DNA of 62,992 nt, the filler included, from Reclinomonas americana ATCC 50394 (taxonomy: Eukaryota), in assembly GCA_048213135.1 (NCBI GenBank). It is 9 parts of 6 records of this genome, joined end to end, with 100 filler letters (N's around TTAATTAATTAA, not from the genome) between each part and the next. Parts side by side here need not be neighbours in the genome. Positions count along the whole stretch, not along the records: positions 9,812 to 19,863 come from PS015459.1; 8 more parts are not named here. One strand, given 5' to 3'. Positions 1 through 62,992 of the stretch are shown piece by piece (position 1 is the stretch's first letter; each line of letters opens with the position of its first letter). Under the pieces are notes generated by a model, which did not search any database, was not told the origin of the DNA, and was given only the letters and a program-made list of their open reading frames with translations. Both the position numbers and the translations under genes were made by a program.

Positions 1-1
1 G

Positions 2-1552
2 GGCATTGCGCGCAAGCTCAAGGAGCGCATCCCCGGTGTGAAGGTTTGGTGTTCTATCACTGGGCGCTGCTGTCAGGTGCCCTGTTGTCTGACTGCTTTC
101 TGATGGGGTGTAGATTCTCGGCGTGGATCCCGTCGGTTCCATCTTGGCCGACGATTCACACGCGATTGGCACGTACGATGTGGAGGGGTGAGTACCGATT
201 CAGGGAAAGATTATCTCTCTCTCTCCCTCTTCCTCTTCCTCTTCCTCTTCCTCTTCCTCTTCCTCTTCCTCTTCCTCTTCCTCTTCCTCTTCCTCTTCCT
301 CTCCCTCTTCCTCTTCCTCTTCCTCTTCCTCTTCCTCTTCCTCTTCCTCTCTTTCTTCTCCTGAATTTCCTCTCTCTGGGGGCTTCCCCGCAATTGGAGT
401 TGTGTTCATCTGTCTCCCTCAACCTTTCGATACTGTTCTCTCCCCTGCACTCTTCTATTCTATGTCTCTCTTTCCTCTCTCCTCTCTCACTTTCTTTCTT
501 TCCTCGCTTTCCCCCTCTCTTTCCTCTCTTTCTCCTGATGTCCTTCTCTCTGTGTGTACACCCCCCCCCCAGTCTTGTTCATGTATTTCTCCCAGACTTT
601 CCAGAATATTTCTCTCCGCTTTTCTTTGATTTTCCCTCGCCGAGTCTTGCGATGTGTTCGCCCTACCTTCCAGTCGATCTCTTTCTTCCCCCCTTCTCTC
701 TTTCTCTTTCTTCTTCTTCTTCTTCGTATTCTTCTTCTTCTTCTCGGTTTTTCTCTTTCTTCTCCTTCTCTCTCTCCTGGCTTTCCGTCTCTCTTGTCCC
801 CGAGACTTACAGTATTTTCATTCAATCTTTCCAAACCATTTCTCCCTTTTTCCTTCCTCTCTCTCTTTCCCCCCTTCGTCTCCTGCTCTCCCTCTCCTTT
901 CTCTTCGTGCCCGCTGACGACATTCGTGTGTGTGCCACGGGCAGTGTGGGATACGATTTCATCCCGAAGGTGCTGGAGCGCGGCCTGGTGGACGAGTGGT
1001 ACAAGAGCACCGACAAGGAGTCATTTTTGATGGCGCGCCGACTGATCCGCGAGGAGGGTCTGCTGTGCGGCGGCTCCTCGGGCAGTGCCATGGTGGCTGC
1101 GCTGAAGGTGGCACGCACGGTACGTTGTTTTGTTGTTCTCGTGCAAGTGGGAGGAGGCATTTTTCTGAGTCTCGTGTGACAGCTGCCAGCTGACGCGCGC
1201 GTGGTGGTGATTTTGCCCGACGGTCTGCGCAACTACATGACCAAGTTCCTCAGGCCCGAGTGGATGATGGAGCGCGGCCACGCCGACGAGGAGATGTTGG
1301 CCAAGGCGGCGGCGTCGTCGGCGGCCCCTGCTGCGGAGGTGCGGTAACTGTACTTTGCCCCTGTCGTGATGATGATGCAAGCTGAACGCTGCGCCTCCTC
1401 TTCCCCCCGTCGCTCCACAGAAGTCGGAGATTGAGACTCTGCGCGAGATGAACTCGAAGATGCGCACGCAAATGGAGCAGCTGATGCTGGAGCGCGACAG
1501 AATGGCCGAGGAGATGGCCCGTCTGCGCAAGGCTCCCGCGTCGGCCGAGTGA
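2..1552 (+). CDS. CBS: Cystathionine beta-synthase (5'-partial, multi-exon), ending in a short coiled-coil tail instead of a Bateman module
   Basis: Spliced: [120 protein letters not shown]...|[47 protein letters not shown] introns; TGA at 1550-1552. Confidence 0.93.
225..350 (+). repeat. (CTCTTC)n microsatellite in the CT-expanded CBS intron
   Basis: Tandem hexamer inside the ~750-nt pyrimidine-rich intron at 188-944. Confidence 0.95.
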
Positions 1553-9711: not shown

Positions 9712-9811
9712 NNNNNNNNNNNNNNNNNNNNNNNNNNNNNNNNNNNNNNNNNNNNTTAATTAATTAANNNNNNNNNNNNNNNNNNNNNNNNNNNNNNNNN
9801 NNNNNNNNNNN
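9712..9811. other. Artificial contig-joining spacer N44-TTAATTAATTAA-N44; recurs with the 12-mer at 19908, 30604, 34844, 44477, 51338, 55947 and 60982
   Basis: Identical 100-nt structure each time; the 12-mer gives stop codons in all six frames. Confidence 0.97.
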
Positions 9812-11673: not shown

Positions 11674-12396
11674 TCTCTTTGTCGCCGTGCTGGCCGTCTG
11701 TGTGGCCGTCGCACTGGCCGATTCGTGCGCCTACACTTGCAAGAACTACGACGCCGTGCGCCTCGGCACCGCCTCGTGCCCACCCAACACCAGCGACCTC
11801 ACCAACGGCAACTGCTGTGGCTTCTACTCGGGCGCCAACTGCGACGTCTCTCCCTTCCCCGCCGTGTGGCCGCCAGTCGCCGTGTGCACCAATGAGCCGG
11901 GTGCCTGCAACAGCAACGGCTTCTGCAAGCCCGACCTCACCTGCGCCTGCTACTACAACTGCGTCAACTACGTGCAGGTGGCCCTCGGCACTGCTGTGTG
12001 CCCGCCCGGCACCAACGATGCTGGCAACGGTTTGTCACTTGTCTGCTCTCTCTCTCTCATCCCCGCAATGACTCAACTCTCCTCCATCTCTCTCCCTCCC
12101 TCGCAGGCAACTGCTGCGGCAGCTGGTCGGGCAGCCACTGCGAGAACTCGCCGTTCCCGGCTGTGTGGCCGCCGGTGCCGGTGTGCACTGATGCCCCCGG
12201 CGCATGCAACAACCACGGTTACTGCACGGCCGATCTGACTTGCCAGTGCCACTACGCCTGCAACAACTACCCCGCCGTGGCCGCTGGCACCGCCTCGTGC
12301 CCCGGCACCAGCTCTCACCTCGGCAACGGCAACTGCTGCGGCAGCTACAGTGGTGCCACCTGCAGCCAGTCTCCGTTTGACAGCTGCACGCAGTAG
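11674..12396 (+). CDS. Secreted Cys-rich protein with ~2.6 tandem EGF-like modules (start in gap)
   Basis: Signal-peptide tail LFVAVLAVCVAVALA; repeated unit CxYxCxNYxxVxxGTAxCPxxTxxxxNGNCCGxxSGxxCxxSPFPAVWPPVxVCT; one intron at ~12030-12106; TAG at 12394-12396. Confidence 0.8.
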
Positions 12397-12469
12397 ACGA
12401 GAGTAGATAGAGAGAGAGATTCTTGCCAAATGAAATCTGTAATTACATGTTTGCACTTGCCAACAGTCA

Positions 12470-15400
12470 TCACAGGCTCACAGCGGCCGCAGCTAACGGC
12501 GGCGCCAGCACAAGTGTGTGATAGCCGTACTCGTCTCCCGAGTCGAAGCGAGTGACCGAGGTGCGACAGAGAGGACATTTGCCACGTCGCTCGACCACTT
12601 GCTGTGCACAGTTGCGGCACACAACCTCGTGTCCGCACGGACGCAGTCGAGTTTCGCGCACATCGTAACAAAGCACGCAGGCGCGACGGCACGACAACGC
12701 AGTGAGATCGCGCATCTCGGCCACCAGCTCGTCGGCACTCGGGCGGCGATTGGGTCGATGGTCGACACAGCTGCACCCCAAACCATGAGGGAACTACGCA
12801 GTGCAAACAAGAACGGGGCTGATGCTTACTACTCACCGCATGGCCAATCGCACAAGACGGCGACAGACGGATGTGGGCCATTCCCGGCCCACCGAGGTGT
12901 CGGCCAGCAGCACAGCGGCCTCATCGAGTCTCGCCACGTCGTCGTCCTCCACCATTCCCTCAATCCACTTGTGCACTCTTGCAATTGGTTGACCGGAGAA
13001 CAGTTGCAGCAGAATGAGTCCGAGGCAGTATACGTCGGCAGTCGGGCGCAGAATGCCACGCAGTGCCTGCGGATCGGCATAGTCGTGGTCGCCGGCAAAC
13101 TGCACCGATAGGTGTGTCTGCTTGTCACCACACGCGCACTCATGAGTATACTATCGGTGGGAAGGCGGGGGAAGGGAGAGAGCACACTCACCCCACCGGT
13201 GCGGAACCAGTGCGCGATTCCCAGGTCCGAGATGCACGCCTGGCCACGCTCGTCAAAGAGGATGTTGGCGGGCTTCAAGTCGCGATGAATGACTGCGAAT
13301 CATGGTGAATATTTGAGGCCACGACGTAAATGAGCGCACAGAGACTCACCATTCTGGGCGACGGCGAGAACAGAAAGCAGTGACAGTGAGAGGGAAGAGG
13401 AGTGAGAAACGACGTCATCAAGTAGCACGACAGCGACACAAACCATCCTGTACAACAAGAGATGATGAGAAACGACCACAAGCACCCGATTTCCCACTGC
13501 AGCTGCTGCCTCACCTATGCAATGCCGCCACGATCTCCGAACAACGAAGCAAACACGTCATGCGCTCCTCGATGGCCATGACGGGCAATCCGAGTGCTTG
13601 ATACTCCAACAGCCGGTGCTCGAGGTTGTGCTCGCTTGTGAATGATCAAGAGAAAGACAGTGCATCAGCAACAACGTGCCAGAAGAATTGCATGCAACCA
13701 GCAGGAATACGCAATATCCACCAACCTCATGGCCTCCAGCACAATGCACTTTTCACCACGGTCTGATTCGGCAAACCCAATAATGCGAACCACGCCAGGC
13801 ACCATCACATTCTTCAGTTTCTCCAACTGCACCCAGCAAATAACGGTAAACAAAATGCGATGATCACCATGGCCAGGTCTCCCCACACGAATATTCTCAC
13901 CTCATTGGAGAACGACTCGATGCACCACGGCGCATCGCTGTCGAACACTTTGACGGCCACCTGCTGCTCCTTCCACGCGCCAGAAAACACGCTTCCCTGT
14001 CCACCAGTGCCAAGACGACGAGCAAAGCCATTTGTCATGGCGCCGATTTGCCTCCACGAAAAGACCGTCAATGGAACTGCAAAGCTGCACATGAGCACAA
14101 GCAATCTTTGCCGCACACTCACTCGCACTCACCACGATGGTTGAGCTCGTGCTGCGCGGCGGCCAAATCAGCGGCCAGTCGTTGTGCGCGGTCGTATTCT
14201 TGCTGCCGCTGCTCGTCCATGCGCTCCAAAGAGACGCGAAGAGCCGCACATTCCTCACGCAAGCGCTGCACCGCGGCTTCTCGCTGTGGCTGCACATGCA
14301 ACCGCTGCATCTCCACCTCGCGCCGCAGTCGCCCAATGGTGGCATCTTGTTGTTGTACGCGCTGCTGCAACACATCCGCTTGGGCATTTCGCTCGCGGAC
14401 AGCCGTCTGCTGCTGCTGCCGCTGCTCCTCTACCTCCCGCCTCAGCTGCGCAATGGTGGCTTCATGTTGCTGCACTTGCTGTTGCAATGCATCCACTTGA
14501 GCTGTTCGCTCGCGGACAGCCGCCTGCTGCACGTCCGCCTCATCCAGCACCTGTGCAATCGTGGCATCTTGCTGCTGTGCTGTCGCTCGCTGCTCCGCCA
14601 GGTCGCGTTGCAGTTGTGCAATAGTTGCCTCCAGCTCCTGCTCGCGGCCCGAGTTCACTTGCGGTGGCTGTTGCACTCAATCCCGATGAGCGTCAACATA
14701 GCATCAATAATGTTGTCATTCCTCACCGGCGGGTAAGCCATTCGTGGAGCAGGGGAGAACACTGGGGGTGCTTGGTACGGTGGAGGTGCGTCGTACACTG
14801 GTGGTGGGTACATTTGAGGATAGCCGTACGCTGCAGGAGCGGCGAATGCTGCAGCTGGGGCTTGAGGTAGCACTGGTGGAGGGACGTATGCTGCTGCTGC
14901 CGGAGGAGAGCCGAACGCTGGCGGTGCGTCGTACACTGGTGGCGAGCGGTGCACTGGCCGCGGTGTATGTGGTGGTGCGATGTACGCAGAGGCTGAAGAC
15001 CTCGAAGGCGCTGCGCATCACGCAAAACCGTCAACATGTACAAGCGCATAAACACGAAGCAAGATGCAAGGATACGCACGGAATATGCGTGCAGCGTCAC
15101 GACGTCGCCGCGCAACGGCCAGCTCTGCTCGGGTTTCGGAAAGACTGTCGGCAGTGCTCTGGGTGTGCGCGTGGTTCGGCCCCAGCACGCGACGACGAAG
15201 CGGCAAGATTTCCTCGAATATCTGCACGGCCTCCTCCAGATTGGCCAAGCCGCCTACATTGACCAGCGTGTATGCCATATTGTGCATGCTCGTCAGTGTT
15301 GCAGGGTGATCCGCACCCAACACTTCACGTCTCCGGCGCACAACATCACGCGAGACTCGAACTGACTCCTCGTACTCCTTGTTATCGTCAAGCGCGAGAG

Positions 15401-15839
15401 CCAGACAGTGTAATGTATCCAACACACACTGGTCCCCTTCATCCACGTAGCGTTCCTGCTTCGCCGCCGTGTCGCGCAGCAATGCAATGGCCTCATCGTA
15501 CCACTTGAGCGCCAGCAGAGTGAGACCCTTGTTGAACGCCGTCTGCAACGTTCTCTTGTGAGTCGCGCCCAACAAACGCTTCCTCCTCTCCAGCACATCG
15601 TCGAATAGTGACAATGCGCTCTGCGTGTCTCCCGACTCGCGGAGCGTAACCGCATACTTGAAGGCACACACAAGAGTCGCCTCGTCGTCAGGGCCGCGCA
15701 AGTCCTCAAAATCTCTTAGGCAGGAACTGAGAATGGGTGCGGCAGTGGCATGATCACCGCTGTCGCAGAGCCGTCTGGCTTCATCATACTGCTGCCTTAT
15801 CTCATCGTAACTCGGCGTCGGGCCTTCGCGTCGTTGCAT
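12470..15839 (-). CDS. TPR - Pro-rich - coiled coil - Pelle/IRAK/RLK-like Ser/Thr kinase - C3HC4 RING fusion protein
   Basis: All junctions phase correctly with GT-AG. Order: TPRs (LGADHPATLTSMHNMA, VLGPNHAHT), PPVYDAPP repeats, Gln-rich coiled coil, kinase motifs (LGTGGQGSVF, VAVK, HRDLKPAN, DLG, YADP, DVYCLG), then RING CVLC..PCGH..CRNC..CPLC; TGA at 12470. Confidence 0.85.
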
Positions 15840-16049
15840 GACGACAAACACAAGCCGGACGATAACCACTAAAGGACTTTTTTGACATGTATATTGGCAG
15901 ACAGTTCGAAGTTCCGTGCCACTCAAGAGGATGCACCGCACATCACCATCGCCAAGCGAAGTACAAACATGGAGAAGTGCTTATGATCCCACATGCGCGA
16001 CAGATCGACAAGCTCGGCGATCGAGCTCGAGGTCGTGATCCATGCATGT

Positions 16050-16206
16050 ATGCATCCGAACCGCGCAAGTCCTCAAAGTCGCGCATGCAGCGAGCGAGGA
16101 GGGGTGCGGCGGTGGCATAGTCACCATTGTAGTAGTGCCGCTTGGCCTCTTCGTACTGCAGCTTGACCTCATCGAAGGTAGGCGCACGACCTCCGCTCCG
16201 ACGCAT
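16050..16206 (-). pseudogene. Truncated duplicate of the first ~50 codons of the TPR-kinase-RING gene
   Basis: MRRSGGRAPTFDEVKLQYEEAKRHYYNGDYATAAPLLARCMRDFEDLRGSD aligns with MQRREGPTPSYDEIRQQYDEARRLCDSGDHATAAPILSSCLRDFEDLRGPD; similarity then stops. Confidence 0.6.
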
Positions 16207-16445
16207 TTATGACAAGATTTTTTCCAGCACGCCGGACACGAAGGATCCTGTCAATGATGCCGGCGATGGGTGCGGACGGTCTGCTCGTGGCAACTGAGTA
16301 CTCGTGATAGTGCTGCCTTTGCAGAGTAGACGGTGGGGATCGTCTGCACTCATCGTGCAGGTGGGTGTGCGATATTGCCAATGTGCACATGTGTTGGTGC
16401 ATGCACGGTAAGTCATCGAAAGAAGTTTTACACCTCACTATCCTC

Positions 16446-19848
<3,403 letters not shown>

Positions 19849-19963
19849 CGTACGTACGAACGTNNNNNNNNNNNNNNNNNNNNNNNNNNNNNNNNNNNNN
19901 NNNNNNNTTAATTAATTAANNNNNNNNNNNNNNNNNNNNNNNNNNNNNNNNNNNNNNNNNNNN

Positions 19964-36607: not shown

Positions 36608-39202
36608 ATGACACCGATGCCGGCTACGCTCTGGCAGGTGTGTTGTTCTTTCTTTTTCCCTCAGTGCACACATGCACAACACCACAGAGAAGAGGGTATA
36701 AAGAGGCTCTGATGCGTTTGTGCGCTCTCAGCTCCACTCGAAGTCCACAACTTTGACGACTGCCTGCCGTTGTTGGGTTTGCCAGCATCGGTACTGGAGG
36801 CTGTTCTCAAGGGTGTGAAAGAACACTACACTGCGGCTGTGTGGAACGCCACGGGAGTAGGTTATTACACTGCGTGCTTTTGTTAGCAGTCCCCCTTCTT
36901 TTCCTTGCCGCTTACACAAACTTCTTCGAAGCTGGCAAGCAGATGTTTCTGCAGACGCTGGCCTCTCTGCTCGCCACTCGCGAGGTGGAGATNNNNNNNN
37001 NNNNNNNNNNNNNNNNNNNNNNNNNNNNNNNNNNNNNNNNNNNNNNNNNNNNNNNNNNNNNNNNNNNNNNNNNNNNNNNNNNNNNNNNNNNNNNNNNNNN
37101 NNNNNNNNNNNNNNNNNNNNNNNNNNNNNNNNNNNNNNNNNNNNNNNNNNNNNNNNNNNNNNNNNNNNNNNNNNNNNNNNNNNNNNNNNNNNNNNNNNNN
37201 NNNNNNNNNNNNNNNNNNNNNNNNNNNNNNNNNNNNNNNNNNNNNNNNNNNNNNNNNNNNNNNNNNNNNNTACAGGTGTGGCAAGAGAGAAAGGAACGAA
37301 AAGGGGGGAGAGAGAGACTCATTTACGTAACGATGTGTGCACAGCGCTGGATGCGTTTGGCGAGTCCGAGTACGCGCCCGGCGTGAAGCGGCGGCGCAAG
37401 CTGCAGGTGGAGGAGTTGTCGGCGGAGGTGCGTGAGCGACTGGAGGCGCTGCGCAATGAGTACTCGACGGCTGTGGCCTCCATCGTGGATGTGGCGGCGC
37501 CGAGCAGTCAACCGCAGCGCGGTGGTGGTTTCGAATCCAAAATCGAGCAAGCGCCGCCACTCGACATTTCACCATTCAATGAGTTGTTTGATCGCGACCG
37601 CCAGTTCGTGCAGCGTGTGACGCAGCGCGAGCGCTCCATGCACGATCGTACCACCGTGTTGCGTGCCGAGCAGGCGCTGCAGACGGTGCAGGCCGGCACC
37701 ACGGCCACTTCGGGGCGTGCAGGCACCGGCTCTGCTGTCTCCGCCTCACAACAGTCATCACAAGGCTCTGCAAGTGGCGAGGCCGACAACCAGGCGAAGC
37801 GCGGTTACTTTTCTGACGTGCTAGAACTATTCCGGCTGGTGCAGCGAACAGCGGTGCGTTTCCTTTCCTCGGGATGAGTTCATTTGCAAAGATCTCACTT
37901 GCATTTGTACATACAGGCCAGTGAACCGGTGGCCACACACGCCACGGCCGCCGCCGGTGGTCCCGTCGGTGGACGACCCAGCGGTGGCCGACCTGGCTCG
38001 CCGACGTCGGCGCGCAAGTCCACGCAGCCAAAGAAGCCGGCCGTGGAACCGTCGCGCTTGGAGCGACAGGTGCCGGAGAACCAAGTATGGGGTCACGCCG
38101 GCATTGGCTCCGGTGCGTGTCTTGTCGTCGTAGCACTTGTGACCGTACACACAGTCACTCACCACGTCCACCAACCAGACGTGACGGACATTGTGGCAAA
38201 CCCCTCCGGAACGCTGCTCCCCGTGCGCGTTGCGTCATTCCTCCCCCCTTGTCTCGCACATGCCCTTTCTCACTCGTGGCACACAGTCGGCCTCCTCCTC
38301 CACAACCTCTTCGTCGTCCGCCGCTCCGCGGTCATCGTCCGCTCCCCGGCCAGCCCCACCATCAAAACCAACGACCGCCGCTGCTCCGCCGCCTCCCCCT
38401 CCTGCATCTTCGTCCTCCTCCTCCGCTGGCGCTGCAACAGCAGCAGCCGGGGGTTCAGGGGCGGCAGCACCACCCGAGGGCAAGAAGCAGCGACCATTTA
38501 TCATTCTGGTGCCGTCGGCCGCCACCTCGCTCATCACGCTGTACAATGCCAAGGAATTCCTACAAGACGGAAAGTTGCGTGACACACACACGAAACGCCG
38601 CACTGCGTGTTCCTCCCCTCCCCCCATCCCACTCACGCACGTTGGTGGTGTTGCGTGCTCCAGCTTTGTGTTCTCGGAGGAGAAGCGCAAGGCCAACCCG
38701 AAAAAGGAGAGCTTTGTGCGCATCACACGCACACTACCGAACGGGCAGACAATGACGTACGACGTGCTGGACAACCCGGCCAAGCTGCCCGCCGGCTACT
38801 TTGAGCGCACCGTGGCCGTCTTTGTCACCGGCCAGCCGTGGCAGTTTGCCGACTGGCCCATCTCGCAGCCGGCAGAGATCTTCTCCAAGTGTTGCGTGAC
38901 CACTCGTGCTTTGCTATGTGCGTGCGGGTTGCTGCTGCTCAAAAAGACGCACGCAGTCCGCGGCTTCCACCTGCACTTCACCGACGAGAAGGCGCACCCG
39001 AACGTGGCGAACTGGAACGTCAAGACACTCACGGTCTTTTCCTGCAACGCTCGCGTACTTGCACACGACACACACACTTGCTCACTACTGTGTACAGATC
39101 TCCAAGGAAAACCACATGCGATACATGGACCGATCCAAATACCTCGAGTTCTGGCGCCTCGTCGACGACCACATGACGAAGAAGAACATGTGGAAGCTGT
39201 GA
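36608..39202 (+). CDS. CDC73: PAF1 complex subunit CDC73/parafibromin (N-terminus uncertain)
   Basis: DRQFVQRVTQRERSMHDRTTVL; RPFIILVPSAATSLITLYNAKEFLQDGNFV; YFERTVAVFVTGQPWQFADWP..PAEIFSKFRGFHLHF..VANWNVKTLTISK..RYMDR..FWRLVD. Confidence 0.92.
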
Positions 39203-39295
39203 TCGAGCAGAAAAAAAGGAAAAAGGGGGGGAAAAGTGTGTGACAGCTCGTGACACGATAAAAATTCAATCAATTTCTCATCAGCTTGTCAGAGA

Positions 39296-41652: not shown

Positions 41653-42725
41653 ATGAACATCATGCAACAACAACAACAACAACAACGCCGATCAACAGCG
41701 ACACTCGCTGTCCTGCTTCTTCTTGCAGTGACATGTGTGGTGTGCTGTACAAGTGGAGCCGAAGCTCGTTGCGTTGGCTGTTACCTCTCATTGTCTCGTC
41801 TTGGTTTCTCACCGTCGGACTTGTTGGTTTCTTTGTGCTACGTGCAGGTCGGAACATCAAGTGTGGACAGAGTTGCGCGGGCTATTTTTTGCCACCTTTT
41901 TCTTTTTGTTGTGCTGGTGTATTGACGTTTTGAAGCAACAACAACAGCTTCGAGTACGGATATGAACCTGCAAGCTAATATCACTTGCGGAGGACAGTTG
42001 CGGCCACTCGGCAACACCTTGCCTGTGGTGATCAACTCGGCATCGTGGGGACGCAGTCAAGGTACGCTCTCTACGCTATCCTACTTGTCAGTGATCGACA
42101 CAAGAAGCCTCACGTCGCATGCTGCTGCAGTATTGACCACCTGCCCGATCTCATCCATGTTTGGCAACACGCGCGTCGACTCGCAAACGTGCGCTCCGTC
42201 GGATGTGGATGTGACCAGCTTTGTGGCGGCGGCGTGCGCTGGACAGGCGTCGTGCGCCGTCAGTGTGTCGGATGACGGCCCGCTCAACCGCGTGGGCCAG
42301 AGCGCCAATGGCGCGCTCAACGAGCCGTGCCCGACCGTGTACAAGTACTTGACGGTCGACTTCACGTGCAGCTGCGTGGCGGGCTTCATGGGAGCCGCCT
42401 GCGAGTGCAACCAGGCCACTGACTGGTGAGGCTCACCTCAGTCGGTGTCTCCCTTTGTCCTCGTCCTCATTGCTCTCCCCTTCCCCGCTTGCAGCAACGT
42501 GCAGACGGTGCTCCCGAACGGTCAACCAGCCGGCACGTGCAACCCGAACGGCACAGTGGCCGGTGGCAACCTGTGCTTCTGCCAGCCGGGCTTTTACGGC
42601 GCGGCTTGCCTCGGCACGTGCAACTGCAAGAACGGTGGCACGTGCGCCGACGGCATCACTGGCGACGGAAAGTGCACTTGTGCTGCCGGCTTTTATGGCG
42701 CCGACTGCTCGGGCGTGTGCCCGAG
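41653..42725 (+). CDS. Secreted SUEL/Gal-lectin + EGF-repeat protein, N-terminal part
   Basis: Signal [15 protein letters not shown]; lectin motifs [48 protein letters not shown]; then EGF repeats ([20 protein letters not shown]). Confidence 0.85.
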
Positions 42726-42945: not shown

Positions 42946-44432
42946 CCTGAGAACCCAGTGTTGCACACGCAAGCGCCAAAGCCATCCAGCCGCCCGCGGT
43001 TCGAGCAGTTGCGCGTTGTGCAACCGTACGCCACCGACGCAAACTTGTACTGCGACGGGCACGGATCTGAGCCCGTATCGTTCGGGAAGCGATCAAGGTT
43101 GCCGCCGCTGGCCAGGAACTCGTAGCAGTACGACGTCGGCGGGTTCTGATTGCACAGACCCTGGAAGTGCGCCGTCACGTCCTTGATGCATGTGGTGGTG
43201 TCGGCCAGCAGACTGCTTCCAGGCGGAACAGGGCATGTCGTGGCTGTGTGGAAATAACATGAGCAAACTGATTCTTCTCAACTCTCTCCCTTTGAAAAAC
43301 GCAACTGTCGGTGCGGCCCCAGTTGGCCGACATCGCAAACACGTACTGGCCAGCCGGGCATGCCACCACAATTGTACCGTCACTCGTAGTTGCCGCATTG
43401 TTGTCGTCCTGGCAGCCAGTCTGTCGCTGGATCGGCACGCAGTCCGGACCCGTGAAACCAGGTGCGCACTTGTTGCACGACGTGCCAGTGAAGCCAATCT
43501 TGCAAACGCAGTTGCCGTTGCCGTCGCACGTGCCGTGTCCATTGCAGGTGGTGGCCGCGCTGCAACCCTTGTCGCACTTCGGGCCGTACATGCCGTTGAT
43601 GCACTGACTGCAGTCCGACCCACCATACGGGAAGAAGCAGTTGCAGGTCGCGTCCGCATTGCACGTGCCTTGCCCGCTGCACGACTCCACCGGACGGCAC
43701 TCGCAGAACGGTCCGTTGATGCCAGGTCGGCATCCGCACTTCTTCGTCACCGGATCGCAGATGCCGTTGTTGAAGTCAGTGCAGCTGTTGATGTTGTTCG
43801 GGTTGCACATGTCGCACTTGTCGCCCACAACACCAGGCTTGCACGCACAGCCGGTGCCCAGCACGCCCTCCGAGCACGACGTCGTGCCGTTGGACAAGCA
43901 CTCGCTGCACAGGCCGGCACACTGCGGTCCGTACCGACCAGGAGCACACTTGTCGCACAGCGGTCCACTGAAGCCGTCCTTGCACTGGCAGCCCGTGCCA
44001 GTCACGCCCTCCGAGCACGTCGCCGTGCCGGCACCGTAGCAAGCGCTGCACTGGCTTGTGCATGTCGGACCAAACAGTCCCGGCAAGCACGTGCTGCACG
44101 ACTTGCTGGCATCGAACCCAGTCGTGCACACGCACGATCCGTCGGTCTGCGCCACACCCTTGCCGTTGCACGTCACCGCGTCCGTGTATTGGCAAGTCGA
44201 GCCGGTCGAGCCTGGCTTGCACACGCAGCCGGCACCAGAGCGACCCGGCACGCACTCCACCGTGTTGGCCACCACGCAAGCAGCGCACCGGCCACTGCAA
44301 TCAGCACCAAACGCCTGCGCAATGCACTGATCGCACAGCGTGCCGGTGAAACCGTTCTTGCACACGCAGCCGAGACCAGCTATGCCCTCGCTGCACGTCT
44401 CGGTACCGCCGACATCGCACTGCGAGCAAAGA
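42946..44432 (-). CDS. Laminin-type EGF repeats plus a second SUEL lectin domain (probably the inverted continuation of 41653-42725)
   Basis: Long Cys-rich ORF (CKNGFTGTLCDQC, CKDGFSGPLCDKC...), then VACPAGQYVFAMSANWGRTD|TTTCP..DVTAHFQGLCN..DPCPSQYKFASVAYGC; open at both ends. Confidence 0.82.
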
Positions 44433-61102: not shown

Positions 61103-61593
61103 CTTGGCGTGATGCGCAACGTGGTGCAGCTTGAGCGTGTCTGCGAATAGACATTCAGGGAAAGGGGGTGGTGGTGGAACACAATCCGGACACCTCCCAT
61201 CCCACTCTGCCGCCCACAAGACGAGGACGACGAGGCGCACCGCACGCTCTCACTCACTCACTCACTCACTCACTCACTCACCGAGACGCGCCACGGCATT
61301 GCGATACGGACCAAATCCAGTCGCCACCGAGATTGCTGCTCACACAGTGCGTCACCACTCTGCCCATGATTCACACACGCACACTCAACACACGCACCCT
61401 GTCTTGTTATCTCCTTCAGCTGGCGACCAGTGATGCCCGTCAGACTCGGCACATGCAACACGAGGTTCTTGAAGTTCCGATACTCAAACGAGCGGATCAC
61501 TCTCATCACCAGTGTGAACGAGCTGGGTGGTGGCTCTCCTCCACTCCCACTTGCCTCAGAGGGCGCGTCGGATGCCGACGCAGCAGAGGCCAT
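61103..61593 (-). CDS. AIM29: UPF0538 / C2orf76 / AIM29 family protein (3'-partial)
   Basis: TLVMRVIRSFEYRNFKNLVLH..TGRQLKE..|AISVATGFGPYRN..|DTLKLHHVAHHAK. Confidence 0.88.
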
Positions 61594-61697
61594 GATATGA
61601 TCGCGCTTGTGCGTGAGTGAGCGATTAGATTGCGAGTGACTGATTGCTCGCCTGTCTTTGTCTCTCTCCACACACACTCGCTCTTGCTGCTGTACGG
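61594..61697. promoter_or_regulatory. Probable bidirectional promoter between AIM29 and WDR61
   Basis: Divergent ATGs only 104 nt apart. Confidence 0.55.
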
Positions 61698-62979
61698 ATG
61701 AGGTCAGTTGTCTCTCAGTGTGTGAGCATGTGTGTGCATGCTGCTGATATGTGCTTGCGTGCGTGTGTGCACAGTTACGCGCAGAGTTTGCGACGAGAAG
61801 AGGCGCATGTGGATGGCATCTGGTGTGTGTGCTGGCCGCGCAGTGGAGCACCACTGGTGACTGGCTCAGTCGATGGTGCTGTCAAGCTGTGGTGCGTGTG
61901 TGTGTGTGTGTGTGTGACATGCGCGCGCACTCTTTTCTCTCTTGTCTCTTACACATGCGTGCAGGGCACCGGAGACACTCGAGTCGAGAGTGCAGTTTGA
62001 CGCGCATCCGCTTGGTGTGCTGTCGGTGACGTGCGATCAGGGTGGACGAGGTCTGTGTGTCGATGAATGATTGATTGTGATTGATTGCATGCACTCATTT
62101 CAATTCTCCCCCGTTAGTGTGCGCTGCCTCGTCCATGGACAGCCTCATTGCCATCTACGACTTGGAGCGTGGACAGCGAGTGAATGAGATTGGCAAGAAG
62201 AGTGCACCAAGTTGCGCGCATGCATCGTTGCTGCGGTGCTTGCTGTTGTCTCACGCTCATTGTCAGTGGACATATGGACGAGCTGCATCACGCCCGACGC
62301 CAAGTACGTGGTGGCTGGCGGGCAAGTTGCGCTGCACAGTGGTATGCGTGCGTGCATGTAGGGTCGTTGAGTCGCTCACCAGCAAGCATGCAGAGTGGCA
62401 AGGCGCAGTTGTATGATGTGGAGAAAGGCGGCAATCCGACGGCGTCGTATGAGACGCGCGGCCCGTTCATCATGAGTGTCAAATTCGTTGCGTGTGCGCC
62501 GCCGTGTTGTGTTTGGCTTGCTGCGTGTGCAGTTCTCAATGACTAAGGCAGAGCCCCGATGGGCGGATGCTGGCGTGTGGGTCGAAGGACGGCCTGGTCA
62601 CTGTGTTTGACGCCGAGAGCCGTGCGCTGCTGTACCGATTGGAGGGTTACGTCTGGCCCTCCCTCACTTTCCTGTGTGCGCATCGTCTGAAGAGAATTGG
62701 ATGCCGACAGGTCACTCGTTGTGTGTCCGCGCCTTGTCGTTCACGCCGGACTCGGCACACTTGATCACGGGCTCCGACGACAAGCACATCCACGTGTACA
62801 GCATGGCCGATGGCCGTCTGGTGGGCTCTGTCAGTGGCCACTCGTCGTGGGTCGTGTCGGTGGATGCTTCGCCCGATCGGCGGCATTTTGCGTCTTCGTC
62901 CACCGATCACCACGTCAAGGTGTGGGATTTGCGGACGCGCGAGGCGGTCACCACATTTGGTGGATACCACACCGATCAG
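61698..62979 (+). CDS. WDR61: WD40 protein WDR61/SKI8 (3'-partial)
   Basis: EEAHVDGIWCVCW..LVTGSVDGAVKLW..HPLGVLSV..ASSMDSLI..PMDIWT..TRGPFIMSVKFSPDGRMLACG..EGHSLCVRALSFTPDS..LITGSDDKHI..SGHSSWV..SSSTDHHVKVWD..HTDQ. Confidence 0.94.
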
Positions 62980-62992
62980 GTGTGCATTCTTT

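What the first reader, a model, noticed from the sequence alone, without database searches (positions are those of the whole stretch)
12470..15839. Unusual TPR - PPxY - coiled coil - Pelle/RLK-like kinase - RING protein
Seen: several separate ORFs in the track splice in phase into one protein; for example TTC C|gtgcgt..cag|CG joins the TPR ORF to the Pro-rich exon. Established: LGxxHPxT-type TPRs are the sensor repeats of fungal NB-ARC/NLR-like proteins. FSxxxIxxxTNxF..LGxGGxG and YxDP are RLK/Pelle/IRAK signatures. Plant U-box kinases have a similar coiled coil-kinase-E3 layout but lack TPRs. PPVY/PPPY fit the WW-domain ligand PPxY. Inference: a single-chain sensor-oligomeriser-kinase-E3 receptor, an architecture I do not recognise.
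Basis: partly seen in the sequence, partly recalled or inferred. Interest (0 to 1): 0.75.

Follow-up and report, generated by a model that had tools for sequence, protein, structure and literature searches.

The report
TPR–coiled-coil–IRAK-like kinase–RING gene
A ten-exon gene of an unidentified protist appears to encode one protein that joins a peptide-binding TPR domain, a dimerising helix, an IRAK/receptor-like kinase and a RING ubiquitin ligase, which is a new front end on a kinase–ligase fusion already seen in other protists and, with a U-box, in plants.

Summary
On the minus strand, 12470-15839, ORFs join through nine GT..AG introns of 56-91 nt into one 918-codon frame.

The parts of the predicted protein:
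- Five 42-residue TPRs of the kinesin-light-chain / fungal-NLR type.
- A proline-rich linker with three PPxY motifs.
- A 175-residue helix predicted to form a parallel dimer.
- A kinase of the RLK/Pelle/IRAK class with all catalytic residues.
- A C-terminal C3HC4_3 RING.

The coiled-coil–kinase–RING part is not unique. 22 of 30 scanned database hits carry kinase plus this RING, behind Ank, LRR, WD40, UBA or CUE modules. One is a Capsaspora "TKL/IRAK" protein. None of the 22 has TPRs.

Weak points:
- No RNA evidence could be obtained.
- The frame stays open only if a 98-nt exon is included. It puts 35 residues where 154 other kinases have 5-16.
- The kinase sits on a very long branch.

Verdict: a real gene model and a new variant of a known kind. 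The "receptor" reading is inference. Interest is moderate.

The parts
15080..15839 (-). Exon 1: ATG plus five 42-residue TPR units and a capping helix (253 codons + 1 nt)
   Evidence: TPR_12 4e-29 and TPR_10 2.2e-27. The AlphaFold model has pLDDT 93.5 and 11 helices. Best folds are the KLC1 TPR and Podospora KLC-like TPR, TMq 0.72-0.74. PDB sequence hits run from 7.9e-17 to 2.7e-08.
14727..15010 (-). Exon 2: proline-rich linker (31 Pro in 95 residues) with PPVY, PPVY and PPPY
   Evidence: Joins to exons 1 and 3 in phase. No Pfam family. PPxY lies at model residues 277, 323 and 329. Enrichment is marginal.
14133..14667 (-). Exon 3: Q/A/R/E-rich coiled coil of about 175 residues, holding a 117-nt tandem duplication (14302-14530)
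   Evidence: Predicted as a single helix over residues 3-177, pLDDT 94.3. 39-residue repeats. The homodimer prediction passed: score 0.42 against best control 0.00.
13901..14076 (-). Exon 4: FS..I..MTNGF lead-in, Gly-rich loop GTGGQG, VAVK lysine and alpha-C glutamate
   Evidence: PK_Tyr_Ser-Thr 0.0043 on this piece alone. Aligns with 11 kinase-RING homologues.
13726..13826 (-). Exon 5: kinase beta4-beta5 / hinge
   Evidence: In phase. Collinear with homologues.
13515..13634 (-). Exon 6: kinase alpha-D/alpha-E, ending in ..AALH
   Evidence: In phase. Alignment.
13350..13447 (-). Questionable 98-nt exon: the only canonical way to keep the frame. It adds a hydrophobic/Ser-rich stretch before VIHRD.
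   Evidence: The flanking introns are 67 and 57 nt with GTGAG donors. The resulting alpha-E-to-HRD spacing is 35, against 5-16 in 154 other kinase domains. Its GC by codon position is [0.69, 0.34, 0.53].
13192..13292 (-). Exon 7: catalytic loop HRDLKPAN and DLG (the DFG equivalent)
   Evidence: Pkinase 1.7e-07 at profile positions 119-150, 31.4 bits against a 31.7-bit cut-off. Alignment.
12837..13117 (-). Exon 8: activation segment (..YADPQ), subdomains IX-XI
   Evidence: Best solved matches are IRAK4 at 1.6e-05, then PBL2, RIPK, BIK1 and Pto.
12470..12770 (-). Exon 9: end of the kinase (..RPSADEL..), a linker of about 15 residues, a C3HC4 RING with all eight zinc ligands, the tail and the TGA stop
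   Evidence: zf-C3HC4_3 3.5e-10. MEX3C 1.2e-07, then cIAP and XIAP RINGs. The ligand columns are invariant in the family alignment.
16054..16206 (-). Upstream relic: a copy of the first 51 codons of exon 1, ATG included, which then diverges to a stop
   Evidence: tblastn 57% identity over 51 residues, 7e-14. The DNA alignment shows likeness from about 10 nt before the ATG to ..GACTTGCGCGG.

Best explanation
This is one protein-coding gene (minus strand, ten exons, 918 codons) of an unidentified, poorly sampled eukaryote. Its product belongs to a scarcely described family whose core is a coiled coil, an RLK/Pelle/IRAK-class kinase and a C-terminal IAP/MEX3C-type RING. Here the core sits behind a KLC/NLR-type TPR domain and a proline-rich linker.

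Proposed working, all inferred:
1. The concave face of the TPR solenoid binds a short peptide of a partner or client.
2. The long parallel coiled coil holds two chains in register. The two kinase domains can then trans-autophosphorylate, and the two C-terminal RINGs can pair, as IAP-type RINGs do.
3. The kinase and the RING act on the same bound client or on each other, so that phosphorylation gates ubiquitylation. This has been shown for the plant kinase/U-box protein PUB33.

What is shown: the exon structure, the domain identities, the conserved catalytic and zinc-binding residues, and the existence of collinear homologues.

What is inferred: that it is one transcript, that both enzymes are active, dimerisation, and any sensor or immune role.
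For: Gene model:
- Nine GT..AG introns of 56-91 nt, all in phase, give a 918-codon frame from an ATG to a TGA.
- Exons show a coding-like GC pattern by codon position.
- The largest non-coding gap inside the model is 91 nt.

Domains:
- TPR.
- Helix of 175 residues.
- RING.
- Kinase with GxGxxG, VAVK, alpha-C Glu, HRDLKxxN, DLG, the subdomain IX Asp and the subdomain XI Arg.

Family:
- Residues 520-918 of the model align end to end with kinase-RING proteins at 25-30% identity. For the full-length proteins aligned, E runs from 4.5e-39 to 3.6e-22.
- 22 of 30 Pfam-scanned hits carry Pkinase plus zf-C3HC4_3.
- Several have coiled-coil-like stretches just before the kinase.
- In the tree, the window falls in a clade with SH-aLRT 98 that holds 15 of the 19 kinase-RING rows.
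- The next relatives of the family profile are plant RLKs and IRAK4.

Dimer:
- The model supports a parallel in-register homodimer of exon 3. Score 0.42, best of 3 controls 0.00.
- The mark was reached by 21 of 30 proteins solved as pairs of one chain and 0 of 23 solved as single chains (microbes).
- On eukaryotes it was reached by 17 of 29 and 0 of 30, but by only 1 of the 7 with no older solved relative.
- The runs agree in at least 0% of contacts, and the partner's pLDDT is at least 59.
- Long coiled coils resemble many solved structures, so the pass may be from memory.

Analogue: PUB33 has both activities, forms homomers, and is regulated by autophosphorylation (abstract of 10.64898/2026.02.10.704836).
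Against: - The link between the TPR/Pro-rich exons and the coiled-coil–kinase–RING exons rests on splice logic alone.
- If intron 1 is retained, the TPR ORF stops 20 codons later. The Pro-rich exon also holds in-frame Met codons.
- The frame needs the 98-nt exon. Its product makes the alpha-E-to-HRD spacing 35, against 5-16 in 154 other kinase domains. Its pyrimidine-rich DNA looks intron-like.
- The kinase's end branch is 2.4 against a median of 0.48, so its place in the tree is unsure.
- Profile scores do not separate the kinase-RING clade (129.7 bits) from plant RLKs (130.6) or IRAK4 (119.3).
- No TPR-kinase-RING protein was seen in any list: 0 of 120 listed carry the RING family, as far as I could see. 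0 of 120 listed carry TPR_12 or TPR_10, and 0 of the 22 kinase-RING proteins scanned have TPRs. There is therefore no comparative support for the fusion.
- PPxY is barely above chance.
Confidence: 0.6

Rival explanations
1. There are two transcription units: a small TPR-only protein (exon 1, ending in the retained first intron) and a separate coiled-coil–kinase–RING protein that starts at an internal Met. The fusion would then be an artefact of joining ORFs.
For: Unspliced, the TPR ORF reaches a stop at 15018-15020, 20 codons past the proposed donor. The Pro-rich exon contains Met codons. Homologues of the kinase-RING core exist without any N-terminal repeat domain, for example P0129, P0142, P0152 and P0181. 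No homologue with TPRs was found.
Against: The gaps between these exons are 69 and 59 nt, each with GT..AG exactly at the ORF ends and in phase, which leaves no room for a terminator and a promoter. The Pro-rich frame is open for about 66 codons upstream of its first Met. Homologues with other repeat modules in front of the same core (Ank, LRR, WD40) show that this kind of fusion is usual.
Confidence: 0.15
2. The locus is decaying or makes no active kinase. Either the true splice skips the 98-nt stretch, shifts the frame and truncates the protein after the N-lobe, or the insert disables the C-lobe. Only the TPR–coiled-coil scaffold would then be functional, possibly with a pseudokinase.
For: The direct exon 6 to exon 7 join is out of frame. 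The spacing of 35 is unique among 155 kinase domains. The branch is very long. A fragmentary duplicate of the 5' end lies just upstream, so the locus has been rearranged.
Against: All other eight junctions and 918 codons are intact, and every catalytic and zinc-binding residue is kept. The 98-nt exon is flanked by introns of typical size (67 and 57 nt) with consensus donors, whereas a single 222-nt intron would be an outlier.
Confidence: 0.2
3. It is the C-terminal part of an NLR/STAND-type receptor whose NTPase exons lie further upstream.
For: TPR_10/TPR_12 repeats of this type usually follow NB-ARC (many hits carry PF00931; passages of PMC4986451). Minus-strand ORFs with coding-like composition lie at 16891-18805.
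Against: No NB-ARC, NACHT or other family was found in any upstream ORF, even at E up to 1. Exon 1 and its upstream duplicate both begin with ATG at the same aligned position. In NLRs the repeats are C-terminal, whereas here they are N-terminal.
Confidence: 0.03

Closest known systems
Protist [module]–coiled coil–IRAK-like kinase–RING proteins, e.g. Capsaspora owczarzaki XP_004347679.1 ('TKL/IRAK protein kinase', LRR-kinase-RING, P0249) and a Triparma verrucosa protein (kinase-RING-Ank, P0294)
   Same: The kinase lead-in motif is the same. The kinase class, the short linker, the C-terminal zf-C3HC4_3 RING with eight ligands and a short conserved tail also match. A helical or coiled-coil stretch often lies before the kinase.
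   Different: The N-terminal module here is a KLC-type TPR plus a PPxY-bearing Pro-rich linker, seen in none of the 22 kinase-RING proteins scanned. Identity is only 25-30%. There is a 35-residue spacing before HRD. The named Capsaspora protein sits in a different clade of the tree.
Plant PUB-VI / RLCK-IXb proteins (PUB32-35, PUB50-53, PUB61)
   Same: They also have a long alpha-helical region, then an RLK/Pelle-class kinase, then a C-terminal E3 domain. PUB33 has dual kinase and E3 activity, forms homomers and shows cross-regulation by autophosphorylation (abstract and section 5 of 10.64898/2026.02.10.704836).
   Different: The plant proteins carry a U-box (no zinc ligands) and an N-terminal USP domain. 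This protein has a zinc-binding RING and TPRs and no USP.
Animal IRAK4/IRAK1 with the RING ligases TRAF6 and Pellino (separate polypeptides)
   Same: The kinase class is the same: IRAK4 is the best solved match of the C-lobe exon at 1.6e-05. The logic of kinase-coupled RING ubiquitylation within an oligomer is recalled, not tested.
   Different: There is no death domain. The E3 is fused in cis, and oligomerisation would be by a coiled coil rather than a Myddosome.
NB-ARC–TPR STAND/NLR proteins of fungi and actinobacteria, and kinesin light chains
   Same: The 42-residue TPR_10/TPR_12 repeat type and fold are the same. Passages of PMC4986451 state that fungal NLR TPRs are mostly 42 residues and go with NB-ARC.
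   Different: There is no NTPase domain, and the TPRs are N-terminal and few (five).
Bacterial Ser/Thr kinase–TPR proteins (Planctomycetota and others)
   Same: Kinase and TPR_12 lie on one chain.
   Different: The order is reversed (kinase N-terminal), there is no RING, and the kinase is distant: 45.8 bits against about 130 for RLK-type profiles.

Membership tests
RLK/Pelle/IRAK kinases (TKL group) | Complete eukaryotic protein kinase catalytic core | tested here: met
   GTGGQG, VAVK, alpha-C Glu, HRDLKPAN, DLG, the subdomain IX Asp and the subdomain XI Arg are present and aligned with homologues.
RLK/Pelle/IRAK kinases (TKL group) | Nearest relatives are RLK/Pelle/IRAK kinases | tested here: met
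   C-lobe exon: IRAK4 1.6e-05, then PBL2, RIPK, BIK1 and Pto. The family profile finds plant RLKs and IRAK4 next. Profile scores are 130.6 (plant RLK) and 119.3 (IRAK4) against 45.8 (bacterial STK).
RLK/Pelle/IRAK kinases (TKL group) | Separated from the other TKL families (RAF, MLK, LRRK, RIPK, STKR) | tested here: inconclusive
   No such sequences were in the tree. The N-lobe exon alone gave only weak matches to PTK6, BMP/TGF-beta receptors and RAF, with E of 0.012 or more.
Protist kinase–C-terminal RING family (unnamed) | Kinase followed after a short linker by a terminal zf-C3HC4_3 RING with eight ligands, collinear over the whole length | tested here: met
   The aligned span is residues 14-378 of the 399-residue query.
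Protist kinase–C-terminal RING family (unnamed) | Kinase domain groups with family members in a tree | tested here: inconclusive
   It lies inside a clade with SH-aLRT 98, but its end branch is 2.4 against a median of 0.48, from a quick search only. Profile scores do not discriminate.
Protist kinase–C-terminal RING family (unnamed) | Usual spacing between alpha-E 'LH' and 'HRD' | tested here: not met
   35 residues in the model against 5-16 in 154 other kinase domains. This depends on the uncertain 98-nt exon.
Plant PUB-VI/RLCK-IXb | U-box E3 domain | tested here: not met
   Pfam finds RING families. The only U-box-related hits (zf-RING_4, zf-RING_UBOX) are weak and below their cut-offs. All eight zinc ligands are present.
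Plant PUB-VI/RLCK-IXb | N-terminal USP domain | tested here: not met
   No USP hit on any exon.
Plant PUB-VI/RLCK-IXb | Long alpha-helical region before the kinase | tested here: met
   Helix over residues 3-177 of exon 3, pLDDT 94.3.
NLR / STAND receptors | NB-ARC or NACHT NTPase domain | tested here: not met
   None in the gene or in upstream ORFs.
NLR / STAND receptors | 42-residue TPR_10/TPR_12 repeats | tested here: met
WW-domain ligands (PPxY) | PPxY motifs in a disordered region, more than composition predicts | tested here: inconclusive
   Three motifs against a shuffled mean of 0.93. 5.5% of 20000 shuffles reach 3.
WW-domain ligands (PPxY) | A WW-domain partner that binds them | not testable with these tools
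   No genome is held.

The most novel reading that the evidence does not exclude
The protein is a self-contained innate-immunity-style signalling unit. A TPR sensor of the kind used by NLRs would be wired directly, through a dimerising coiled coil, to an IRAK-class kinase and a TRAF6/Pellino-like RING in one chain. On that reading, the family with swappable Ank, LRR, WD40 or TPR front ends is a protist counterpart of receptor–IRAK–E3 pathways. It would show that kinase-gated ubiquitin signalling by IRAK-class kinases predates or parallels the plant and animal systems.
Probability: 0.12. Interest if true: 0.75.

Novelty: new variant of a known kind. Interest (0 to 1): 0.4.

Why it matters
Kinase–E3 fusions of the RLK/Pelle/IRAK class have so far been studied only in plants (the U-box kinases). 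This locus and its homologues show a parallel RING-based family in protists, with interchangeable recognition modules. If the protein is made and both enzymes are active, it offers a compact system for studying how autophosphorylation gates ubiquitin transfer. It would also help trace how IRAK-like kinases were first coupled to E3 ligases. As it stands it is a gene prediction in an unidentified organism with no expression data, so its value is as a lead.

Tried and rejected
- Whole genome: none is held for this window.
- Earlier notes of this scan: none by place, by sequence or by words.
- RNA evidence: no RNA holder was listed for 12300-16300.
- Long in-frame reference with 'region': I tried this to widen the length filter of the homologue search. 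I did not pursue it.
- Exon 1 against metagenome contigs: 54 pattern matches, none confirmed.
- Organism identification through the neighbouring CDC73 exon: only two hits, at 31% identity. The organism stays unknown. The best identity of any library protein to exon 9 was 54%, over the RING only, so the organism's own proteome is not in the libraries.
- ESM Atlas with exon 1: only generic bacterial TPR_10/TPR_12 clusters.
- Rfam on the whole window: no match.
- NB-ARC or another N-terminal domain upstream: none.
- An 8-nt micro-exon (13447-13440, donor GTGTCG) would restore a spacing of 5 before HRD. I consider it speculative because the donor is off-consensus and micro-exons of this size are rare (reasoned).
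- Literature: four searches listed no paper describing a protist kinase-RING family or a TPR-kinase-RING protein. Subscription journals and supplements were not covered.
Full report
**What is there.**
The finding lies on the minus strand. Reading 16300-12300 in reverse complement and listing stop-to-stop ORFs shows a chain of ORFs whose ends coincide with GT and AG dinucleotides. A script that joined them by coordinates gives this model:
- Exon 1: 15839-15080
- Exon 2: 15010-14727
- Exon 3: 14667-14133
- Exon 4: 14076-13901
- Exon 5: 13826-13726
- Exon 6: 13634-13515
- Extra exon: 13447-13350
- Exon 7: 13292-13192
- Exon 8: 13117-12837
- Exon 9: 12770-12470

All nine introns are GT..AG and measure 69, 59, 56, 74, 91, 67, 57, 74 and 66 nt. 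Seven donors begin GTGAG. The exons have the codon-position GC pattern of coding DNA in this window: high GC1, low GC2, GC3 about 0.66.

**Domains.**
- **TPR (exon 1).**
  - Sequence: Pfam finds TPR_12 (4e-29) and TPR_10 (2.2e-27). Its best solved sequence relatives are the Podospora 'kinesin light chain-like' TPR repeats (7.9e-17) and KLC1/KLC2 TPR domains.
  - Fold: a single-sequence AlphaFold model is confident (pLDDT 93.5, pTM 0.84). It shows eleven helices, that is five helix pairs and a capping helix. Foldseek ranks KLC1 TPR and the Podospora repeats first, with TMq 0.72-0.74.
- Type: passages of PMC4986451 state that fungal NLR TPR motifs are mostly 42 residues long, go preferentially with NB-ARC and were modelled on KLC2.
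- **Proline-rich linker (exon 2).** It has 31 Pro in 95 residues, no Pfam family and three PPxY motifs. Shuffling the stretch gives a mean of 0.93 motifs and reaches three in 5.5% of 20000 trials. Two of the three lie in a repeated unit. The WW-ligand idea is therefore weakly founded.
- **Coiled coil (exon 3).**
  - Sequence and fold: it is Q/A/R/E-rich and holds a 117-nt tandem duplication (14302-14530, 80% matches). It is predicted as one helix from residue 3 to 177 (pLDDT 94.3).
  - Dimer test: for two copies, the model supports binding but does not show it. The score is 0.42 and the best of three controls is 0.00. The mark was reached by 21 of 30 proteins solved as pairs of one chain and by 0 of 23 solved as single chains (microbes). 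On eukaryotes it was reached by 17 of 29 and 0 of 30, but by only 1 of the 7 with no older solved relative.
  - Caveats of the dimer test: the runs agree in at least 0% of their contacts (one of the three runs scored 0.00), and the partner's pLDDT is at least 59. The contacts follow a 3-4 spacing with residue i facing residue i, which describes a parallel in-register coiled coil. Such helices resemble many solved structures, so the pass may be from memory.
- **RING (exon 9).** It matches zf-C3HC4_3 (3.5e-10). The closest solved RINGs are those of MEX3C (1.2e-07), cIAP and XIAP. All eight zinc ligands are present and fall in the invariant columns of the family alignment.

**The kinase.**
The kinase is split over exons 4 to 9, so single pieces score weakly in Pfam. 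Spliced, it has the Gly-rich loop, the VAVK lysine, the alpha-C glutamate, HRDLKPAN, DLG, the subdomain IX aspartate and the subdomain XI arginine.
- The C-lobe exon alone finds IRAK4 (1.6e-05), then PBL2, RIPK, BIK1 and Pto among solved structures.
- The N-lobe exon alone gives only weak matches to PTK6, BMP/TGF-beta receptors and RAF, with E of 0.012 or more.

**Relatives.**
*Exon 1 search.* Exon 1 searched among longer proteins gave only generic TPR_12/TPR_10 proteins at 24-37% identity: bacterial FxSxx-COOH TPR proteins, NB-ARC–TPR proteins, bacterial kinase–TPR proteins and fungal 'kinesin light chain' NLR-like proteins. There were 353 hits, of which 120 were listed. I saw none carrying the RING family, and there was no self hit.

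*Exon 9 search.* Exon 9 (kinase tail plus RING), scored against 1.84 billion representatives, gave 869 hits at E ≤ 0.001. The best identity was 54%, over the RING only. The organism's own proteome is therefore not in the library.

*Architectures.* I scanned 30 proteins with Pfam: 26 of the 150 listed, and four.
- 22 carry Pkinase plus a C-terminal zf-C3HC4_3.
- None of the 22 has TPRs.
- Two others of the 30 have TPR plus RING without a kinase (P0207, P0194).

The modules in front of or behind the kinase-RING core are:

| Module | Proteins |
|---|---|
| Ank repeats, N-terminal | P0148, P0174 |
| LRR | P0249 |
| WD40 plus the UBA-bearing stretch shared with P0170 | P0276 |
| UBA | P0170 |
| CUE | P0166 |
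| Arm, C-terminal | P0159 |
| Ank, C-terminal | P0294 |
| No recognised domain | P0129, P0142, P0152, P0181, P0263, P0286, P0291 and others |

*Named members.* P0249 is Capsaspora owczarzaki XP_004347679.1, which UniRef names 'TKL/IRAK protein kinase'. P0294 is from Triparma verrucosa.

*Alignment with the window.* Residues 520-918 of the window's model align with these proteins end to end at 25-30% identity. For the full-length ones aligned, E runs from 4.5e-39 to 3.6e-22. The alignment shows the shared lead-in motif, the kinase motifs, a short linker, the RING and a short tail. Several members have coiled-coil-like sequence directly before the kinase, for example P0263, P0286, P0148, P0152 and P0181.

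*Profile search.* A profile of twelve members (alignment A1) finds further kinase-RING proteins, 9 of the 120 listed. After them come plant RLKs (CRK, PERK, WAK, LecRK, LRR-RLK) and animal IRAK4-like proteins. None of the 120 listed carries TPR_12 or TPR_10.

**Tree.**
The tree was a quick IQ-TREE search on 48 kinase domains. Three bacterial rows were dropped beforehand because their matched domain was short. My label 'protist_noRING' for unnamed rows was a guess, and several of those rows fall among plant RLKs.
- The window falls in a clade with SH-aLRT 98 that holds 15 of the 19 kinase-RING rows. This clade is sister to the plant RLK group.
- The Capsaspora protein and three others form a separate clade, with SH-aLRT 89.
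- The window's end branch is 2.4 against a median of 0.48, so its place is unsure.
- Profiles built from each group score the window's kinase almost equally: 129.7 for the main kinase-RING clade, 130.6 for plant RLKs, 120.6 for the Capsaspora clade and 119.3 for IRAK4. Bacterial kinases score 45.8.

The class RLK/Pelle/IRAK is therefore well supported against bacterial kinases. Other TKL families were not in the comparison.

**The weak junction.**
Exon 6 ends ..AALH in phase 2, and exon 7 (..VIHRDLKPAN) needs phase 1. A direct join shifts the frame.

The only canonical solution is the 98-nt exon at 13447-13350. It is flanked by introns of 67 and 57 nt with GTGAG donors. A single 222-nt intron would be an outlier in this gene.

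However, its product makes the distance from the alpha-E histidine to the HRD histidine 35 residues. The DNA is also pyrimidine-rich like an intron tail. The insert may be real, the join may be a rarer one, or the copy may be damaged. Only RNA can tell, and no RNA run was listed.

**Surroundings.**
- Upstream: about 200 nt upstream of the ATG lies a diverged copy of the first 51 codons, ATG included (57% identity). The likeness runs from about 10 nt before the ATG to ..GACTTGCGCGG. After that point the copy runs into unrelated sequence and a stop. Both copies start at the same Met, which argues that 15839 is the true start.
- Further upstream: minus-strand ORFs at 16891-18805 look coding but match no Pfam family, even at E up to 1. 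No NB-ARC or NACHT domain is present anywhere in the window, so this is not an NLR.
- Downstream: a convergent plus-strand ORF set with cysteine-rich repeats ends within about 75-230 nt of the stop.

**How it most likely works.**
*Shown:* the gene model, the domains, the conserved residues, and the family of collinear homologues.

*Inferred:* the protein is a cytoplasmic dimer held by the coiled coil.
- The TPR groove binds a short peptide of a partner.
- The paired kinase domains autophosphorylate in trans.
- The paired C-terminal RINGs recruit an E2.
- Phosphorylation and ubiquitylation are coupled on the bound partner or on the protein itself.

The nearest tested case is Arabidopsis PUB33 (USP, long helix, RLCK, U-box). 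According to its abstract, it has both activities, forms homomers, and is inversely regulated in its two activities by autophosphorylation at one threonine (10.64898/2026.02.10.704836). A passage of 10.1101/2020.01.27.920793 says that an IRAK4-type kinase of the last eukaryotic common ancestor underwent much duplication. That fits finding this class in protists.

**Novelty.**
The core (helix, IRAK-class kinase, terminal E3) is known from plants with a U-box. With a RING, it is present but hardly described in protist proteomes. The TPR plus Pro-rich front end is new within what I could examine.

Four literature searches listed no description of this family. Those searches do not cover subscription journals or supplements.

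I rate it a new variant of a known kind, of moderate interest. The rating is limited by the lack of expression data, the unknown organism and the doubtful exon.

Noticed in passing
window 16054-16206 (-): A diverged duplicate of the first 51 codons of the gene, ATG included (57% amino-acid identity), about 200 nt upstream of the real start. It then reads into a stop. It is either a relic of a partial tandem duplication or an unused alternative first exon.
   Followed up: partly
window 11675-12393 (+): A convergent neighbour encodes repeated cysteine-rich units of about 75 residues (..CPP.TS.L.NGNCCG.YSGA.C..SPF..). GC3 is high at 0.73-0.76. There is no Pfam family, and the 5' part is lost in a run of 900 N.
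   Followed up: partly
window 19281-19613 (-): An RZ-type zinc finger (PF20173, 6.7e-23), the kind found at the C-terminus of ZNFX1/RNF213-like proteins. It probably marks the 3' end of a large upstream gene on the same strand.
   Followed up: no
window 16891-18805 (-): Several minus-strand ORFs with coding-like GC pattern by codon position (for example 16891-17331 at [0.65, 0.38, 0.74]) have no Pfam match even at E up to 1. This is an unknown gene between the RZ-finger gene and the TPR-kinase-RING gene.
   Followed up: partly
window 38185-39240 (+): A CDC73 C-terminal domain exon (9.1e-33). The closest of 5.8 billion clustered proteins are only 31% identical, which shows how poorly sampled this lineage is.
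   Followed up: partly
window 41926-42426 (+), 43178-44431 (-), 62611-62991 (+), 1-1176 (+), 61273-61881 (-): Other recognisable gene pieces: SUEL lectin, laminin-type EGF repeats, WD40 repeats, a PALP (PLP-dependent enzyme) fragment and DUF2340.
   Followed up: no
whole window: 10219 of 62992 bases are N, in 35 runs. Nine places show the same odd pattern of 44 N, 12 bases, 44 N (for example 9712-9811 and 19864-19963). This looks like masking or scaffolding rather than biology.
   Followed up: no
window 14302-14530 (-): A 117-nt (39-codon) tandem duplication with 80% matches inside the coiled-coil exon. The helix has been lengthened by in-frame unit duplication.
   Followed up: yes
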